Below, piece after piece: positions 7,627 through 62,342 of a DNA stretch of 64,000 nucleotides (position 1 is the first letter of the stretch; each line of letters opens with the position of its first letter). The notes beneath the pieces were generated by a model. It was given only the letters and a program-made list of their open reading frames with translations, was not told the DNA's origin and searched no databases. The translations under genes and the position numbers were made by a program. Source of the stretch: Escherichia phage CMSTMSU; the sequence record MH494197.1; one strand, given 5' to 3'.

Positions 7627-7839
7627 TTATTGTATAAGATATAATCCATCCGTAATGAATAGGATGATTTTTGTCTGAATCAGGAATAAAATATAAAGAT
7701 GTACTGGGTTATAACTGAATAAATCGTTGTTACCAATTGTAAAATGTGATAACTCAATCTTCCTTGTACCTGTACTTGGACGAAGAACATTCTTAACACC
7801 GAAGACTGTACCTTGATATTTCTCGGAAAATTCAAACAA
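7627..7839 (-). CDS. hypothetical protein
   Basis: Track ORF. Confidence 0.35.
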   Translation of the reverse strand: MFEFSEKYQGTVFGVKNVLRPSTGTRKIELSHFTIGNNDLFSYNPVHLYILFLIQTKIILFITDGLYLIQ

Positions 7840-7964
7840 TGCATCTGCAATTAAATCACGAAACTCCGCATGTATGGTTTCAAAAAATCTATATTACACG
7901 ATGTTTTAATATCCTTGAACTCCTTATATAAAGAGCTTCTTGTATTCAAAAGAAATATTACTTT

Positions 7965-8165
7965 TTAAGATCCTGAACTATTTCTGGATTCATATTCATT
8001 TATCTCATTCTGTAACTTAAGCATCAAAATTTGCATATTAATTTTTTGTACAAGGTGATTGAGAAATTTCTGTACTGTATCTTCTTGTTCTTTTGACCCA
8101 AGATAAAATAACATATTAAATTCCGATAACCTCAGAGCAAAATCTTCCTCTCCCCTCGTAAACAA
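7965..8165 (-). CDS. hypothetical protein, LGT-motif family
   Basis: LFYLGSKEQEDTVQKF resembles the LGTNYQE core. Confidence 0.45.
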   Translation of the reverse strand: MFTRGEEDFALRLSEFNMLFYLGSKEQEDTVQKFLNHLVQKINMQILMLKLQNEINEYESRNSSGS

Positions 8166-8412: not shown

Positions 8413-8626
8413 TGATCCTCCCTGACATACCTTGTATTAGCTTATCATACATATCTAGCATTACTTTTTGAATACTAATTAATACTGGCATCGTGCAAAT
8501 ATCAATGTCGTATATTAAGCTGTACTGGAATAATTCCTCTTCCTGCATTTGTACTAAATTAGGTAAAAGATAATTGTCTGCCTCTTCATCCGGTACTTGA
8601 ATGCATAACGCCATCCTTTTGTACAA
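8396..8626 (-). CDS. hypothetical protein, FQ-motif family
   Basis: EEELFQYSLIYD. Confidence 0.5.
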   Translation of the reverse strand: MYKRMALCIQVPDEEADNYLLPNLVQMQEEELFQYSLIYDIDICTMPVLISIQKVMLDMYDKLIQGMSGRIIEIDI

Positions 8627-13811: not shown

Positions 13812-14014
13812 TTACTTTGGATCTCCTTGACTAATGCATCAACCCACATGTCTATATACATTTGTTGATAGTTTGTCCCTATGAGTGCCCTGCATAGAGT
13901 TCAGCTATCATTGCATGTTTTAGGTTGGCAGGATGCTCTTATCAGATTGAATCTTTACTCTTCTGTTGGCACATGTTTTCAGGAGTCTGATGTATTCAAA
14001 GCCTTGTAATTTTC

Positions 14015-46282: not shown

Positions 46283-47404
46283 ATGTTACCTTTTGTTAGA
46301 ATGTTTGATTATGGAAATGAAGCACCTGATCCTAGTTCGGGATTTCGAATAATAAGTACAGGAGACGCATTACTATTAATTACTAAGAGTGGTGATTTGT
46401 GGGTGCGTGGTTATAACCGTTATGGCAAGTTAGGTATAGGTAATAACACCACTACCTATGTACTTGATTGGACGAAGGTTAGAAGTGATGTAAAGTTTGC
46501 GTGTGGTAGTGGATTGGTAACAGTTATCTTTACTAAGGGTAATCGCATATTGTACTGTGGTGACAAATGGTTTGAAACGGGTGGTGTTGGTAGTGCACAG
46601 ATTTTCACATGGACAGATGTTACGCACCAATTTGGGGCAGTAGATTTGAGTACAGTAAGGGATATGAAAATGTCTTATTACACGATTGGATTATTGACTA
46701 CTAATAATCAATTATACGCTAAGGGATATGATAATAACCTATCATTTGGTGGGGTTAGTAATAAGGCGACTGCTGTGTTTATTGCGAATAATGTACAAGA
46801 GTTGTATACGAGTTTAGTTAGTACAATCTACGTTGATACAAGTGGTATATTACATCGTTGTGGCATGAGTGATAACGGTTCGTTGGGTAATAATGTTAAT
46901 TTAACTTCGTATCTAAGTTATTCACAGACTGGTATGACGATTAAGGACATTGGAATGATGACTACGAACACTGGGTTATTATATACTGATTCTAGTGCAC
47001 GCACGAGATATTTTATTGCTGGACAGAACTTGAATAAACAGATGGGTAATGCGGCGGCTGCGAGTGCCATTACGAGTACTTACACAGAGCTTTCTGGTAG
47101 TGTTGATAAGTTTTCTTCTTTATGGGCGAATGATGGGATATTGATGACATTTGCTGTGGGTAAGAACACTAATCAGTTATTTTATGCTGGGATGAATACT
47201 TTTCATGCGAGTGGTGGTGTATCTTCATATGCGGATACATATGAGTTAGTCCCGATGGTGTTTAATGACATACAGGAAGTGTTATGTGCACAGCGTTTAT
47301 CGGTGGTACATGATTCTACGAAGTGGTATTACTGTGGTGATGCTAATTCAATGTATGGTTTACCGGACGTAAGTACTTTTACTGAGTTACCGTTGCCCTT
47401 TTAA
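46283..47404 (+). CDS. RCC1-like beta-propeller repeat protein (intact, 373 aa)
   Basis: Leader MLPFVRMFDYGN; about seven ~50-aa repeats (e.g. WVRGYNRYGKLGIGN); stop immediately before a hairpin terminator. Confidence 0.7.
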   Translation: MLPFVRMFDYGNEAPDPSSGFRIISTGDALLLITKSGDLWVRGYNRYGKLGIGNNTTTYVLDWTKVRSDVKFACGSGLVTVIFTKGNRILYCGDKWFETGGVGSAQIFTWTDVTHQFGAVDLSTVRDMKMSYYTIGLLTTNNQLYAKGYDNNLSFGGVSNKATAVFIANNVQELYTSLVSTIYVDTSGILHRCGMSDNGSLGNNVNLTSYLSYSQTGMTIKDIGMMTTNTGLLYTDSSARTRYFIAGQNLNKQMGNAAAASAITSTYTELSGSVDKFSSLWANDGILMTFAVGKNTNQLFYAGMNTFHASGGVSSYADTYELVPMVFNDIQEVLCAQRLSVVHDSTKWYYCGDANSMYGLPDVSTFTELPLPF

Positions 47405-47411
47405 TAATAGG

Positions 47412-47440
47412 TCAGTACTGAAATATGTACTGGTATTTTT
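47412..47440 (+). terminator. rho-independent terminator
   Basis: CAGTACTGaaatatGTACTGG + TATTTTT. Confidence 0.5.
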
Positions 47441-47476
47441 GTAAATACTATATAATTTAATTACGGAGATTTTATT

Positions 47477-48320: not shown

Positions 48321-48653
48321 ATGCGTGCTTATATGTCGTATCTATGTAGTTCTTCTGGGGATTCTAGTATGTACATAGGCGATGATAATTTCATATACAC
48401 CTGCGGTTATCGTGGGAGGAACTTAATAAATGCCACTACAGATATTGGTACGTTCACGAAATGCATTCAAAGTGCACAAGGATACAAGAATGGACTTATA
48501 TATAGTGGGAATTATTGTGCTGTAGTTTTTGATCCAGATTTGGGTTCAGGAATGTCATATGCGGTTTCATCACCAAAATTGAATGCACCAGCACCACAGG
48601 CGAGTGTTCCAACATTGGGTATGAGTTCGTTACAAGCTATTATTTTACCATAA
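48321..48653 (+). CDS. RCC1-like unit 5 C-terminal fragment
   Basis: Ends just before terminator 48661-48690. Confidence 0.4.
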   Translation: MRAYMSYLCSSSGDSSMYIGDDNFIYTCGYRGRNLINATTDIGTFTKCIQSAQGYKNGLIYSGNYCAVVFDPDLGSGMSYAVSSPKLNAPAPQASVPTLGMSSLQAIILP

Positions 48654-48660
48654 CATTATA

Positions 48661-48690
48661 CCAGTACTGAAATATGTGCTGGTATTTTTT
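48661..48690 (+). terminator. rho-independent terminator
   Basis: CCAGTACtgaaatatGTGCTGG + TATTTTTTT. Confidence 0.5.
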
Positions 48691-48815
48691 TAAATACATT
48701 ATAATTATTATATGGAGATTTTAGTTATGTTACCTTTTGTAAGAATGTTTGATTATGGGAATACAGTGGCTGCTCCCACTGGTATAAAGGATTTCAAGCA
48801 AATGGAAGCCACTGT

Positions 48816-55884: not shown

Positions 55885-55888
55885 AAAA

Positions 55889-55916
55889 GCCAGTATCAAG
55901 TACTGGCTTTTCTTTG
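55889..55916 (+). terminator. rho-independent terminator
   Basis: GCCAGTAtcaaGTACTGGC + TTTTCTTT. Confidence 0.6.
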
Positions 55917-55948
55917 TTAAATATAGTATAATGAATAAAGGAGGAATT

Positions 55949-56164
55949 ATGTTACCTTTTGCTAGAATGGTTAAGTACGGGAATAAAATTGAATATAAGC
56001 CACATGGTGAACAATTAATCACGACAATAGGAACAACACAATTTACAGTTCCTGCTGGCGTTACCGAAATATCAGTATGTGTTATTTCGCCGGTGGTCAA
56101 CGTGGTGCTGGCGGCGGCTTATCGTGGCGTAATAATATTCCGGTTTCTGGTGGTGAGTACTTAA
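55949..56164 (+). CDS. leader-bearing N-part of unit 12 (same MLPFARMVKYGN leader, non-RCC1 body)
   Basis: Track ORF 55826 trimmed to the SD-supported ATG; …TTIGTTQFTVPAGVTEISVCVIS. Confidence 0.45.
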   Translation: MLPFARMVKYGNKIEYKPHGEQLITTIGTTQFTVPAGVTEISVCVISPVVNVVLAAAYRGVIIFRFLVVST

Positions 56165-56683
56165 GTGTTTCTCTTACATCCCAACACTACTACAGCAGTT
56201 GAAAACGGTTTATATCGTGGAACTGAAAAACTATGTGTTAGCTTCACTGGTGCATATACGGTTGGTGGACTAGGTGGAAAAGCTGCTAACGCTATTAATG
56301 ATGGTGGTGGTAATGGTGGCAACACTGGTTTAAGTGGTGGTGCAGTCATTGGTGGTGGTGCTGGTGGCTACACTGGTAAAGGTGGTAACGGAAATGCAAT
56401 CACTGGTGAAAATGGTGCTGGGGGCGGCGGTGGTGGTGGTGCATTCTATAATACCTCGTTCATTGGTACGGGTGGTGGTACTGGTATCATTGTTCAAGGT
56501 GCTAATGGTATTGGTGGTAGCTACGATGGTTCATATAATGGTGGTGCTGGTAGTGGTGGTGCTGGTAATAGGTATGGTGGTGGTGGTAGTATATGGGATA
56601 ATTCTTCTTATACGGCGGCTGGTGGTGGTGCTGTGCGAATAATATGGGGACGTGGGAGATATTATCCTAATAATTCAGTCTAA
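56165..56683 (+). CDS. glycine-rich domain protein (C-part of unit 12)
   Basis: Long GGxGGxG tracts (GGGAGGYTGKGGNGNAITGENGAGGGGGGG…); ends at the terminator. Confidence 0.5.
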   Translation: MFLLHPNTTTAVENGLYRGTEKLCVSFTGAYTVGGLGGKAANAINDGGGNGGNTGLSGGAVIGGGAGGYTGKGGNGNAITGENGAGGGGGGGAFYNTSFIGTGGGTGIIVQGANGIGGSYDGSYNGGAGSGGAGNRYGGGGSIWDNSSYTAAGGGAVRIIWGRGRYYPNNSV

Positions 56684-56690
56684 AATATAG

Positions 56691-56716
56691 GCCAGTACTT
56701 GATACTGGCTTTTCTT
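56691..56716 (+). terminator. rho-independent terminator
   Basis: GCCAGTActtgaTACTGGC + TTTTCTTT. Confidence 0.6.
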
Positions 56717-56752: not shown

Positions 56753-57907
56753 ATGTTACCTTTTGTTAGAATGTTTGATTACGGGAATATTGCACCTGAA
56801 GCTCCAAAGATAAAGAAAGTACTGTGCGGTCTTGATAATTTGTACGTCCTCTATGACGATGGCTCACTTTATGGTTGTGGGGTTAATTCGTATTTTCAGT
56901 TAAACGTTACAAATACAGCAACAAGAAATACTTGGATATTAATTTCAGAAGGTGTTACTGATGCATGGGCTGGGGCGTACAATATTCTTTATATCAAGGG
57001 TGAAGAATTCATAATGCATGGAGTTACCACACAATTAGGCACAGGAAATACTATGATTCCGTTGGGTGGTTTGAATGTTACTTCTTCATTTCCACATATA
57101 TCTAATATTAAAATGATATCAATCGGTGCAGATACAATGCACTACGTTGATGCTAGTGGTTCGATTGTTTATGGTAGAGGCATGAATGGTAACTATTCAC
57201 TCGGTGGTGGGTATTCCACGGCTCAGAGTACTTTTGTTTCAGTTATTAATACCGGAGCTAATACAGTCCTTGATATATTGGGTACACAGAATAACACATT
57301 AATATTAACATCAAATGGTGAACTTCTCGGTTGTGGGAGTAGTGAGTATGGCTCACTTGGCGTAAGTCAAGGACAGTATACTACACTAGTAAGCAGGTTA
57401 ACCAGTGTTAAACTGTTTGGTGGTAACAGTACTGGTACTCTTGCTTATTCAGCCAGCAATATATACAACGCAGGTTGGCAGTATGTTGGTCAACTTGGTA
57501 ACGGTATTACAACGAACACACTAGTATATCCATTTGCATTTAACTCCACTACTATTGATAGTAACATACATAAAATATCAAAATCAAGTACATCTTCACG
57601 TGTTAATATGTACGCAACAACCGAAGGAAAGATATATAGTACTGGTGAATTTGGTAGAAATGGTTCTGGTGGTAGTTTGAGTAGATTCACCAATACACTA
57701 ACTTTAGATAATTACAACCCAGAAAAATCAGCATTATACACATGTGCACATTTTAGTATAGTATTTGATGGTAATAATCAAATTTATGCTTGTGGTTCTT
57801 TTTGTATGTGCGTTCTATTACCACGAACTCATGGTCTGCAATTACAATGCCGAAATGATACTATAAAACTATGCCAGTACTTGATGCTGGCATTTCTTTT
57901 GTATTAA
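56753..57907 (+). CDS. RCC1-like beta-propeller repeat protein, unit 13 (near-intact; extreme C-terminus probably frame-disrupted)
   Basis: Track ORF 56735 trimmed to the SD-supported ATG; close paralog of unit 1; ORF reads through the terminator hairpin. Confidence 0.6.
   Translation: MLPFVRMFDYGNIAPEAPKIKKVLCGLDNLYVLYDDGSLYGCGVNSYFQLNVTNTATRNTWILISEGVTDAWAGAYNILYIKGEEFIMHGVTTQLGTGNTMIPLGGLNVTSSFPHISNIKMISIGADTMHYVDASGSIVYGRGMNGNYSLGGGYSTAQSTFVSVINTGANTVLDILGTQNNTLILTSNGELLGCGSSEYGSLGVSQGQYTTLVSRLTSVKLFGGNSTGTLAYSASNIYNAGWQYVGQLGNGITTNTLVYPFAFNSTTIDSNIHKISKSSTSSRVNMYATTEGKIYSTGEFGRNGSGGSLSRFTNTLTLDNYNPEKSALYTCAHFSIVFDGNNQIYACGSFCMCVLLPRTHGLQLQCRNDTIKLCQYLMLAFLLY
57873..57900 (+). terminator. 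rho-independent terminator
   Basis: GCCAGTActtgaTGCTGGC + ATTTCTTTT. Confidence 0.55.
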
Positions 57908-62128: not shown

Positions 62129-62342
62129 GAGTACCTCAATTAAATCGCTGTAAAATTGTACATTATAAAATGATTAAATAAAGTATAACACAAGGAGATT
62201 TTATCATGTTACCTTTCGTATTGTTATTTGATTATGGGAACGAAAAACAAGAAAGTTCTTATGATGTTAGTGTATATGGAAACAATAACTACATTTTAAA
62301 TAAACAAACTGGAAACCTTTTTGCATCCGGTGCTGCGCATTC

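What the first reader, a model, noticed from the sequence alone, without database searches (positions are those of the whole stretch)
55949..56683. Same leader cassette fused to a glycine-rich, non-RCC1 cargo
Unit 12 carries the identical promoter/SD/MLPFARMVKYGN leader, but its body is …TTIGTTQFTVPAGVTEISV… followed by a long GGxGGxG tract rather than propeller repeats. A shared leader on unrelated cargo argues that the leader is a portable module (targeting tag or recombination handle), not just the N-terminus of one protein family.
Basis: partly seen in the sequence, partly recalled or inferred. Interest (0 to 1): 0.7.

Follow-up and report, generated by a model that had tools for sequence, protein, structure and literature searches.

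The report
Shared virion tag on glycine-rich adhesin
A jumbo E. coli phage gene joins the 12-residue N-terminal tag of its RCC1-propeller gene array to an unrelated tail-fibre-tip-like glycine-rich domain. The same tag sits on at least four other protein folds, most of them found in virions, across this phage group, so it is probably a portable virion-attachment tag.

Summary
Unit 12 (55949-56683) has the same terminator/promoter/SD cassette and MLPFARMVKYGN leader as the RCC1-like units, but a glycine-rich body.

The two frame breaks are a 1-nt deletion (G-run, about 56092) and a 2-nt deletion (ACAC, about 56178). All 17 related Asteriusvirus records carry one intact ORF of 244-245 aa. The window has about one short deletion per 90-250 bp and no CCWGG site, so these breaks are almost certainly sequencing errors.

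The leader (MLPFx[RI][MLI]xxYGN or MLPFPIISNTN) occurs on about 130 proteins, almost all from 350-380 kb Rak2-like jumbo phages or metagenome fragments resembling them. Bodies include RCC1, Kelch, Laminin_G_3 and Gly_rich_2 domains and several unknown types. Its codons vary synonymously, and it also occurs without the cassette. Published virion proteomes detect 9 of 11 tagged proteins in phage CBB, including the glycine-rich homologue, and 8 of 11 in phAPEC6.

The leader is therefore a protein-level virion-association tag. In Asteriusvirus, cassette plus leader also marks recombination breakpoints. I found no prior description.

The parts
55885..55911 (+). Terminator-like stem-loop with T-run that closes unit 11. 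It is the first element of the repeated regulatory cassette.
   Evidence: 12-pair stem, 3-nt loop, T tail; repeated before 12 of 17 units
55917..55932 (+). Promoter-like element TTAAATATAGTATAAT. It has no -35 hexamer and resembles the T4-type late promoter motif (ATAAATA) reported upstream of structural genes in CBB and GAP32.
   Evidence: read from the sequence; no full sigma-70 site found by the scan; late-promoter consensus from PMC5259590; assignment is inferred
55937..55944 (+). Shine-Dalgarno sequence AAAGGAGG, 4 nt before the ATG.
55949..55984 (+). Leader codons 1-12, MLPFARMVKYGN. This is the conserved N-terminal tag.
   Evidence: disordered in the AF2 model
55949..56683 (+). Whole gene for the glycine-rich protein. 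It is 735 nt as given and 738 nt / 245 aa after repair.
   Evidence: orthologues G17_00077, WPEC5_CDS0100, 121Q gp243, fEgEco12 g586
56090..56093 (+). Site of the 1-nt deletion. The window has CCGG where relatives have CCGGG. Reading shifts from frame A to frame B.
56174..56179 (+). Site of the 2-nt deletion. The window has TTACAT where relatives have TTACACAT. Reading returns to frame A.
56006..56250 (+). Approximate TNF-like beta-sandwich part of the body (about residues 20-100), containing the motifs FTVPAGVTEISV and GGGLSWRNNIPV.
56260..56680 (+). Approximate polyglycine 'brush' part (about residues 105-245), ending in the conserved AVRIIWG...YP motif.
56689..56711 (+). Terminator-like stem-loop closing unit 12. 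It starts the cassette of unit 13, whose ATG is at 56753.

Best explanation
Unit 12 is a real gene, probably expressed late, of an Asteriusvirus-type jumbo coliphage. It encodes a 245-aa protein with two parts. The first is a flexible N-terminal tail of about 19 residues, whose first 12 residues (MLPFARMVKYGN) form a conserved tag. The second is a TNF-like plus polyglycine 'brush' head of the kind that forms receptor-binding tips of phage tail fibres.

The tag works at the protein level as a common virion-association signal. The phage puts it on many interchangeable lectin-like bodies: RCC1 and Kelch propellers, Laminin-G/ConA-like domains, and this glycine-rich head. All of them are thereby recruited to the particle. 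I think the most likely mechanism is that the free hydrophobic N-terminus (Met-Leu-Pro-Phe) docks into a shared site on the outside of the virion, such as the bases of the hair or whisker fibres or the protein at the centre of each capsid hexamer. Targeting to the capsid interior is not excluded.

In Asteriusvirus the terminator, promoter, SD and leader together form a DNA block of about 110 bp, repeated 12 times. This block also serves as the homology at which cargo units are exchanged, gained or lost.

Shown here: the gene structure, the fold, the distribution of the tag, conservation at the peptide level, the link to virion proteomes and the recombination breakpoints. Inferred: late expression, the docking mechanism, the docking site and the adhesin function. 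The two frame breaks in the window are sequencing artefacts.
For: - Intact orthologues: 16 records give a single full-length tblastn alignment. The phAPEC6 copy is also intact, with only a 3-nt in-frame change.
- Error signature of the window: 57/57, 62/65 and 116/119 indels against three relatives are 1-3 nt deletions in the window, and about half lie in homopolymers. The window has 0 CCWGG sites in 64 kb, against 0.7-2.6 per kb in relatives. A control comparison of two finished genomes gives a balanced 5/6.
- Homologues carry PF21722.
- The tag occurs on unrelated bodies.
- The RCC1 unit 8 model also has an unstructured tail at residues 1-19 ahead of a UVR8/RCC1-like propeller.
- The tag is restricted to this phage group. 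In IMG/VR all 16 loci lie in contigs of 348-378 kb. In metagenomes, 38 of 40 loci carry the tag and 2 are chance hits.
- Selection acts on the peptide: synonymous codon variation and unconserved upstream DNA. Five to six of the 17 window units have the leader without the standard cassette.
- The tag tracks the genome more than the cargo: identity at positions 5-12 is 0.47 for same genome with different cargo, against 0.36 for different genome with same cargo.
- Virion proteomes: CBB_144 (5 peptides, 34% coverage) and 8 other tagged CBB proteins were detected, 9 of 11 against 46 of 543 others, Fisher p = 2e-8. In phAPEC6, 8 of 11 RCC1-like proteins were detected, p = 2e-6. All six CBB-specific structural proteins carry the tag.
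- Recombination breakpoints fall just after the leader. The glycine-rich unit is present in only 17 of 40 matching records.
Against: - No experiment shows that the tag is necessary or sufficient for incorporation into virions.
- No binding partner has been identified.
- The published mass-spectrometry data do not say whether the N-terminus is retained, or whether the proteins are outside or inside the capsid.
- Twelve residues is short for a stable anchor.
- The hairs are about 119 nm long in CBB and cannot be built from single 25-40 kDa globular proteins, so at most these proteins decorate or tip another structure.
- 121Q and phAPEC6 have an inner body whose components are unknown, and the phAPEC6 authors suggested the RCC1-like proteins for it.
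- This protein itself gives no Pfam hit.
- pN/pS among orthologues is only moderately below 1 (0.1-0.8, based on few substitutions).
- Enrichment in virion proteomes could partly reflect shared late, high expression.
Confidence: 0.6

Rival explanations
1. The leader is a capsid-targeting sequence in the style of the T4 internal proteins. It would recruit the tagged proteins into the prohead core or inner body. They would then be packaged with the DNA and perhaps injected into the host, and the variable array would be an arsenal of internal or ejected proteins.
For: - These phages are distant T4 relatives with a T4-type prohead protease (phAPEC6 gp227c).
- 121Q and phAPEC6 have an inner body of unknown composition, and the phAPEC6 authors proposed the RCC1-like proteins for it.
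- From my own knowledge: T4 internal-protein genes share a 10-residue N-terminal tag on unrelated, highly variable cargo.
- Some leaders read [LIM]-x-E at positions 7-9, which resembles a T4 gp21 protease site.
Against: - Position 9 is Glu in only 10 of 66 leaders. It is K or D in this window, so there is no conserved protease site.
- The cargo folds are typical surface adhesin or lectin modules. The glycine-rich head matches external fibre tips.
- Ejection of rigid 40-75 kDa propellers would require them to unfold.
Confidence: 0.25
2. The leader has no protein function. It is kept only because it is part of a DNA/RNA element (a translation-initiation region and recombination cassette) that gene conversion homogenises within the array.
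For: - Within the window the leader DNA is nearly identical among units, and it travels with the cassette in 12 of 17 units.
- Mosaic breakpoints fall at its end.
Against: - Across genera the codons differ synonymously while the peptide is kept, and the upstream DNA is unrelated.
- The leader occurs on translationally coupled units without a cassette and on isolated genes more than 100 kb from any array.
- M1 and P3 are invariant, while the bodies are about 25% identical.
Confidence: 0.07
3. The frame breaks are biological. Unit 12 would then be a decaying pseudogene in this phage, or would be expressed through two programmed frameshifts.
For: - The sequence as given contains the two shifts.
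- Their net length is -3 nt, which restores the frame.
Against: - The same kind of deletion occurs about every 90-250 bp across the whole window.
- Nearly all indels are deletions in the window.
- They concentrate at homopolymers and remove every CCWGG site.
- Seventeen orthologues are uninterrupted.
- No slippery heptamer is evident at either site.
Confidence: 0.05
4. The glycine-rich ORF is an out-of-frame artefact of a degraded RCC1 unit.
For: Glycine-rich frames can arise from GGT-rich DNA. An overlapping spurious ORF exists at 56334-56642 and was even annotated as gp004 in phAPEC6.
Against: - The repaired frame has homologues down to 30-40% identity in many unrelated phages, with conserved motifs.
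- It gives a confident fold.
- The CBB homologue was detected by mass spectrometry.
- It has no similarity to RCC1 units beyond residue 13.
Confidence: 0.01

Closest known systems
Cyanophage Pam3 tail fibre gp24 (PDB 7YPX), with related 'brush'/polyglycine adhesin heads: Bxb1 gp33 and gp29, S16 gp38, and the ALK/LTK glycine-rich domain
   Different: Pam3 gp24 docks through an N-terminal trimeric alpha-helical bundle. Here that domain is replaced by a disordered tail of about 19 residues carrying the MLPF tag. Sequence identity is only 17%. There is no sequence-level PDB hit and no adjacent chaperone gene.
PeSL composite terminator/promoter cassettes of T4-type phages (Arbiol et al. 2010, PMC2839356; Comeau et al. 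2014, PMC4122927)
   Same: Both are short stem-loop-plus-promoter blocks repeated between variable genes of a hyperplastic region, and both coincide with the exchange points between related phages.
   Different: PeSLs carry early sigma-70 promoters and are non-coding. This cassette has a late-type TAAATA/TATAAT element with no -35, and its homology continues through the SD into 12-15 codons that encode a conserved peptide.
Capsid targeting sequence (CTS) of T4 internal proteins IPI, IPII and IPIII (my own knowledge; Mullaney and Black 1996)
   Same: Both are N-terminal peptides of about 10 residues shared by unrelated, fast-evolving virion proteins in a T4-related lineage. Both are encoded in variable loci.
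   Different: There is no sequence similarity. No conserved L/I-x-E protease site follows the tag. Interior localisation and cleavage are unknown here. The cargo here is lectin- or adhesin-like.
Conserved N-terminal anchor domains of multi-RBP phages (T7 gp17, CBA120 TSPs, phiK64-1/RaK2 branched spikes; my own knowledge)
   Same: The logic is the same: a constant N-terminus matched to the particle with a swappable receptor-binding C-terminus. The tag tracks the genome more than the cargo.
   Different: Those anchors are folded domains of about 100 residues or more that trimerise. This one is 12-19 residues long and is predicted to be unstructured on its own.

Membership tests
Gly_rich_2 (PF21722) / TNF-like + polyglycine 'brush' adhesin domain | Match to the Pfam PF21722 model at its gathering score | tested here: inconclusive
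   The protein itself gives no Pfam hit at E<=1. phmmer relatives at E 1e-17 to 1e-6 carry precomputed PF21722. The tagged paralogue BF_0541 scores 20.2 bits against a cut-off of 24.3.
Gly_rich_2 (PF21722) / TNF-like + polyglycine 'brush' adhesin domain | Fold: TNF-like beta-sandwich followed by stacked glycine-rich strands | tested here: met
Gly_rich_2 (PF21722) / TNF-like + polyglycine 'brush' adhesin domain | Family motifs: (F/W)xVPxGV, GGGLS(W/Y)RNNIPVxPGE, GGGAGGYxGxGG, VRIIWGxxRxYP | tested here: met
   Alignment of 33 homologues; the invariant and near-invariant columns fall in these motifs.
Gly_rich_2 (PF21722) / TNF-like + polyglycine 'brush' adhesin domain | Binds a host surface receptor | not testable with these tools
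   Inferred only from the role assigned to these domains in Pam3 gp24.
RCC1-like propeller paralogues of the array | RCC1 repeats / seven-bladed propeller body | tested here: not met
   No RCC1 Pfam hit, whereas neighbours hit PF25390 and PF13540. No BLAST link between the bodies beyond residue 18. The fold is different.
RCC1-like propeller paralogues of the array | Shared cassette and N-terminal leader | tested here: met
PeSL mobile regulatory cassette | Stem-loop terminator directly followed by a promoter, repeated between variable genes | tested here: met
PeSL mobile regulatory cassette | The promoter is an early sigma-70 type (-35 and -10) | tested here: not met
   The scan finds no two-hexamer site upstream of the ATG. 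The element resembles the late ATAAATA motif.
PeSL mobile regulatory cassette | Lies at indel or exchange boundaries between related phages | tested here: met
   Homology between the window, 121Q and G17 ends just after the leader of the next unit. The array is mosaic. The unit is present in 17 of 40 records.
T4-type capsid targeting sequence | Short N-terminal peptide shared by unrelated virion proteins | tested here: met
T4-type capsid targeting sequence | Followed by a conserved prohead-protease site (L/I-x-E) | tested here: not met
   Position 9 is E in 10 of 66 leaders. It is K in this unit.
T4-type capsid targeting sequence | Directs cargo into the capsid interior and is removed | not testable with these tools
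   Published mass-spectrometry tables give no N-terminal or topological information.
RBP N-terminal anchor domain | Folded, oligomerising anchor domain of about 100 residues or more | tested here: not met
   The folded body starts at residue 20 in both cargo types, and residues 1-19 have low pLDDT.

The most novel reading that the evidence does not exclude
Rak2-like jumbo phages (Asteriusvirus, Mimasvirus, Eneladusvirus and relatives) have a general 'plug-in' display system. A 12-residue N-terminal peptide, MLPFx[RI][MLI]xxYGN, with a second class MLPFPIISNTN, is sufficient to dock any cargo onto a common site of the virion, perhaps the enigmatic hair or whisker fibres or the protein at the centre of each capsid hexamer. 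Each particle would then carry a mixed, rapidly reshuffled repertoire of lectin-like heads: RCC1, Kelch, Laminin-G and polyglycine brush. The tandem array with its cassette would be the diversity generator for this repertoire.
Probability: 0.35. Interest if true: 0.8.

Novelty: new variant of a known kind. Interest (0 to 1): 0.6.

Why it matters
The 'regulator of chromosome condensation' arrays are the most conspicuous unexplained feature of these 350-380 kb phages, and the proteins that make or decorate their hairs are unknown.

A shared 12-residue tag links the RCC1 array with Kelch, Laminin-G and glycine-rich proteins scattered around the genomes. It defines one functional class of about 10-17 virion proteins per phage. 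That class includes all six CBB-specific structural proteins, the set in which the CBB authors expected to find the whisker genes.

This has three consequences:
- The 'DNA condensation' annotation is probably misleading.
- The question becomes directly testable with tag-reporter fusions, tag mutants, N-terminal proteomics and a peptide-partner screen.
- If the tag is sufficient for incorporation, it offers a very short handle for displaying foreign proteins on jumbo phages.

The analysis also flags the window as an error-laden assembly, so the many 'broken' units should not be read as pseudogenes.

Tried and rejected
- Alternative genetic codes as the cause of the fragmented ORFs: no stop-codon reassignment restores long ORFs.
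- Pfam on the protein itself: no hit. PHROGs gives only an unknown-function family, phrog_4474.
- Sequence search of the PDB with a 33-sequence profile: no hit.
- Literature searches for the motif (MLPF), PF21722, Asteriusvirus/RCC1 and cryo-EM of this group: no description of the tag and no identification of the hair proteins. The library lacks most subscription journals. The PVP-SE1 proteome paper is not held.
- A T4-type L/I-x-E cleavage site in the leader: present only in a minority of leaders.
- Absence of the protein from the phAPEC6 virion list: rejected as evidence, because that record annotates only a spurious out-of-frame 100-aa ORF over the gene.
- Two metagenome loci (L053, L064) matching the DNA pattern are internal parts of FAD-oxidoreductase genes, so they are chance hits.
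- A possible analogous tag (M-x-E-[LM]-[LM]) on glycine-rich homologues, and on one weak Laminin-G-like neighbour, in phages of about 150 kb: noted but not established.
- I could not run a peptide-partner (multimer) prediction with the tools available.

Full report
**What the window is.** The region matches Asteriusvirus-type jumbo coliphages (121Q, G17, phAPEC6, fEgEco12, BF17, WPEC5) at 95-98% identity. The + strand from 42.7 to 62.2 kb holds 17 tandem units that start with the leader ATGTTACCTTTTG..AGAATG. There are 16 matches within 3 mismatches, where 0.02 are expected by chance, plus a divergent copy at 62206. Most units encode RCC1-like propellers (PF25390, PF13540, phrog_4219).

**Checking the observation.** Unit 12 runs from the ATG at 55949 to the stop ending at 56683. 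It is preceded by a terminator-like stem-loop (55885-55911), TTAAATA/TATAAT (55917-55932) and AAAGGAGG (55937-55944). Eleven other units share this layout. Its first 36 nt are identical to unit 15 and one synonymous base away from five other units. After codon 13 the sequence is unrelated to the RCC1 units and is glycine-rich.

**The frame problem.** As given, the reading goes from frame A to frame B to frame A, with stops at 56162 (frame A) and 56200 (frame B). Alignment with G17 and WPEC5 shows exactly two differences that matter. One G is missing from CCGGGTGG at about 56092, and one CA is missing from TTACACATCC at about 56178. Restoring them yields a 245-aa ORF. Sixteen related records give one uninterrupted full-length alignment. 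The seventeenth, phAPEC6, is also intact apart from a 3-nt in-frame change. Its record annotates only a spurious out-of-frame 100-aa ORF there.

**The window is systematically damaged.** Against fEgEco12, BF17 and WPEC3, 57/57, 62/65 and 116/119 indels are 1-3 nt deletions in the window. That is roughly one per 90-250 bp, and about half lie in homopolymers. Two finished relatives compared with each other give 11 balanced indels. The window contains no CCWGG at all in 64 kb, although composition predicts about 41 (my own estimate from base frequencies) and relatives have 0.7-2.6 per kb. Several of the relatives' CCWGG sites coincide with window deletions. This is the signature of systematic base-calling error at methylated sites and homopolymers, not of gene decay. 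Alternative genetic codes do not help. I therefore treat the two breaks, and most other 'broken' units, as artefacts.

**What the cargo is.**
- The protein has no Pfam hit of its own and no sequence-level PDB relative.
- phmmer finds 189 relatives. Many carry PF21722 (Gly_rich_2), and they include Salmonella phage PVP-SE1 gp19 and many metagenomic phage proteins of about 250 aa.
- The alignment shows sharp family motifs: FTVPxGV, GGGLSWRNNIPVxPGE, GGGAGGYxGxGG and VRIIWGxxRxYP.
- The AlphaFold model is confident from residue 20 onward (pLDDT 91.8, pTM 0.88), while residues 1-19 are not.
- Unit 12 is therefore an adhesin-type head whose docking domain is replaced by the short leader.

**How far the leader travels.**
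- The homologue in Pectobacterium phage CBB, a different genus, is CBB_144. It begins MLPFSPLIVYGNKI and sits alone between nrdD and nrdG.
- CBB has ten more proteins with the tag: CBB_247, 536, 537 and 548-554. Their bodies are Kelch, Laminin_G_3 or unassigned.
- GAP32, Serratia phage BF, Yersinia phage fHe-Yen9-04 and Xanthomonas phage XaC1 show the same pattern. BF has two glycine-rich tagged proteins inside its RCC1 array.
- A degenerate DNA pattern for the leader hit IMG/VR only in nine contigs of 348-378 kb.
- The same pattern hit 40 metagenome loci. Two of these are chance hits inside oxidoreductase genes.
- In total there are about 130 distinct tagged proteins in at least a dozen body clusters. 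These include RCC1+Kelch double propellers of 667-690 aa.

**Peptide or DNA element?**
- Across 66 proteins, M1 and P3 are invariant, L2 and F4 are present in 63, Y10 in 49, G11 in 46 and N12 in 48. RCC1-type bodies are only about 25% identical to one another.
- Outside Asteriusvirus the leader codons vary synonymously (CCA/CCG/CCT/CCC, TTT/TTC, TAT/TAC, GGA/GGT/GGG), and the upstream DNA is unrelated and often translationally coupled.
- In the window itself, units 4, 7 and 16 lack the cassette, and units 5, 6 and 17 have a different one, yet all keep the leader.
- The RCC1 unit 8 model also begins its fold at residue 20 after an unstructured tail. That fold is a UVR8/RCC1-type propeller.
- The tag is thus a structurally autonomous feature selected at the protein level.
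- Its variable positions follow the genome more than the cargo (0.47 against 0.36 identity). This is expected if it co-evolves with a phage-specific partner. Intragenomic conversion may contribute.
- Two classes exist, ...R[MLI]xxYGN and ...PIISNTN, sometimes within one genome.

**Link to the virion.**
- Published ESI-MS/MS of CBB virions lists CBB_144 (5 peptides, 34% coverage) and CBB_247, 536, 537, 548, 549, 551, 552 and 553 (PMC5259590). That is 9 of 11 tagged proteins against 46 of 543 others (p = 2e-8).
- The six structural proteins the CBB authors singled out as absent from GAP32 all carry the tag. They expected the whisker genes to lie in that set.
- phAPEC6 virions contain eight of the eleven RCC1-like proteins (PMC7247149).
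- GAP32 gp001 was also reported as structural.
- None of these papers, nor the jumbo-phage survey PMC7824862, mentions the shared N-terminus.

**The cassette as a recombination handle.** Downstream of unit 12, the window and fEgEco12 continue into the same unit. 121Q and G17 share the gene end, terminator, promoter, SD and about the first 15 codons, then diverge completely into different cargo. The array is mosaic between phages, and only 17 of 40 matching records contain the glycine-rich unit. This parallels the PeSL terminator/promoter cassettes of T4-type phages (PMC2839356, PMC4122927). It differs in having a late-type promoter element without a -35 and in extending into coding sequence.

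**Mechanism and uncertainty.** I conclude with about 0.6 confidence that the leader is a virion-association tag on interchangeable cargo, and that cassette plus leader doubles as the exchange point of the array. Within that conclusion I favour external docking, for three reasons:
- The cargo consists of adhesin and lectin folds.
- The best structural match is a fibre tip.
- These phages carry unexplained hairs and a protein at the centre of each hexon.

Interior targeting in the manner of the T4 capsid targeting sequence remains a serious rival at about 0.25. 121Q and phAPEC6 have an inner body of unknown composition. Against this rival, there is no conserved protease site after the tag. A purely nucleic-acid or gene-conversion explanation is largely excluded. 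The pseudogene, programmed-frameshift and 'RCC1 artefact' readings are very unlikely.

**Novelty.** The gene is already deposited as a 'hypothetical protein' in 17 phage records, and its fold belongs to a known adhesin type. What appears to be undescribed is the 12-residue tag as a unifying feature of a large class of virion proteins with several different folds in Rak2-like jumbo phages, together with its coupling to a PeSL-like cassette. I rate this a new variant of a known kind: constant N-terminal targeting or anchor modules on swappable cargo.

Noticed in passing
window 1-64000: The whole window carries about one 1-3 nt deletion per 90-250 bp relative to three relatives. Nearly all of these are deletions, about half lie in homopolymers, and the window contains zero CCWGG sites (relatives have 0.7-2.6 per kb). 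This looks like systematic base-calling error at Dcm-type methylated sites and homopolymers. Most fragmented RCC1 units (for example units 1, 2, 3, 5, 6, 7, 9, 10, 11, 14, 15, 16) are probably artefacts.
   Followed up: yes
L003 7325-8059 (phAPEC6, MK817115.1): The phAPEC6 record annotates only a spurious out-of-frame 100-aa ORF (gp004, 7716-8018) over the glycine-rich gene. The true 244-aa ORF is intact. Its absence from the phAPEC6 virion proteome is therefore uninformative.
   Followed up: yes
L004 8001-8765; L006 15969-27065 (minus strand); L033 5026-5760 (phage CBB): All six CBB structural proteins reported as absent from GAP32 (CBB_144, 247, 536, 537, 551, 552) begin with the MLPF tag. 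The CBB authors expected the whisker genes to lie in that set.
   Followed up: partly
L012, L010, L023-L025 and other loci: There are two leader classes, MLPFx[RQ][MLI]xxYGN and MLPFPIISNTN. They can coexist in one genome, which may mean two docking sites.
   Followed up: partly
L023 1903-3930; L025 (minus strand, ATG at 8416); L028 140-2158; L063 (minus strand, ATG at 13824): Tagged double-propeller proteins of 667-690 aa join an RCC1-like domain to a Kelch domain.
   Followed up: partly
L029 8134-8799 and 10001-10744; L005 5998-6840: Glycine-rich homologues in phages of about 150 kb start with M[LI]E[LM]L. In L029 a neighbouring 221-aa protein starts MNEMMIV. It has only a weak Laminin_G_3 hit, below the Pfam cut-off. 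This may be an analogous short tag outside the jumbo clade.
   Followed up: partly
window 47400-47476 and 48650-48726 (units 5 and 6); 62130-62205 (unit 17): Variant regulatory cassettes with a different stem-loop and GTAAATAC-type element precede units that keep the same leader. Units 4, 7 and 16 have no cassette and follow the previous gene directly.
   Followed up: partly
window 1-42000: This region is dense with small minus-strand ORFs of unknown function, as in WPEC3 (38 annotated genes in 11 kb). No tRNA genes were found. GC skew changes sign at about 36-40 kb, where the coding strand switches to the + strand array.
   Followed up: no
window 56334-56642: A 102-aa valine-rich ORF (MVVQSLVVVL...) overlaps the glycine-rich gene in another frame. 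It is a by-product of the GGT-rich sequence, and its phAPEC6 counterpart was mis-annotated as gp004.
   Followed up: yes
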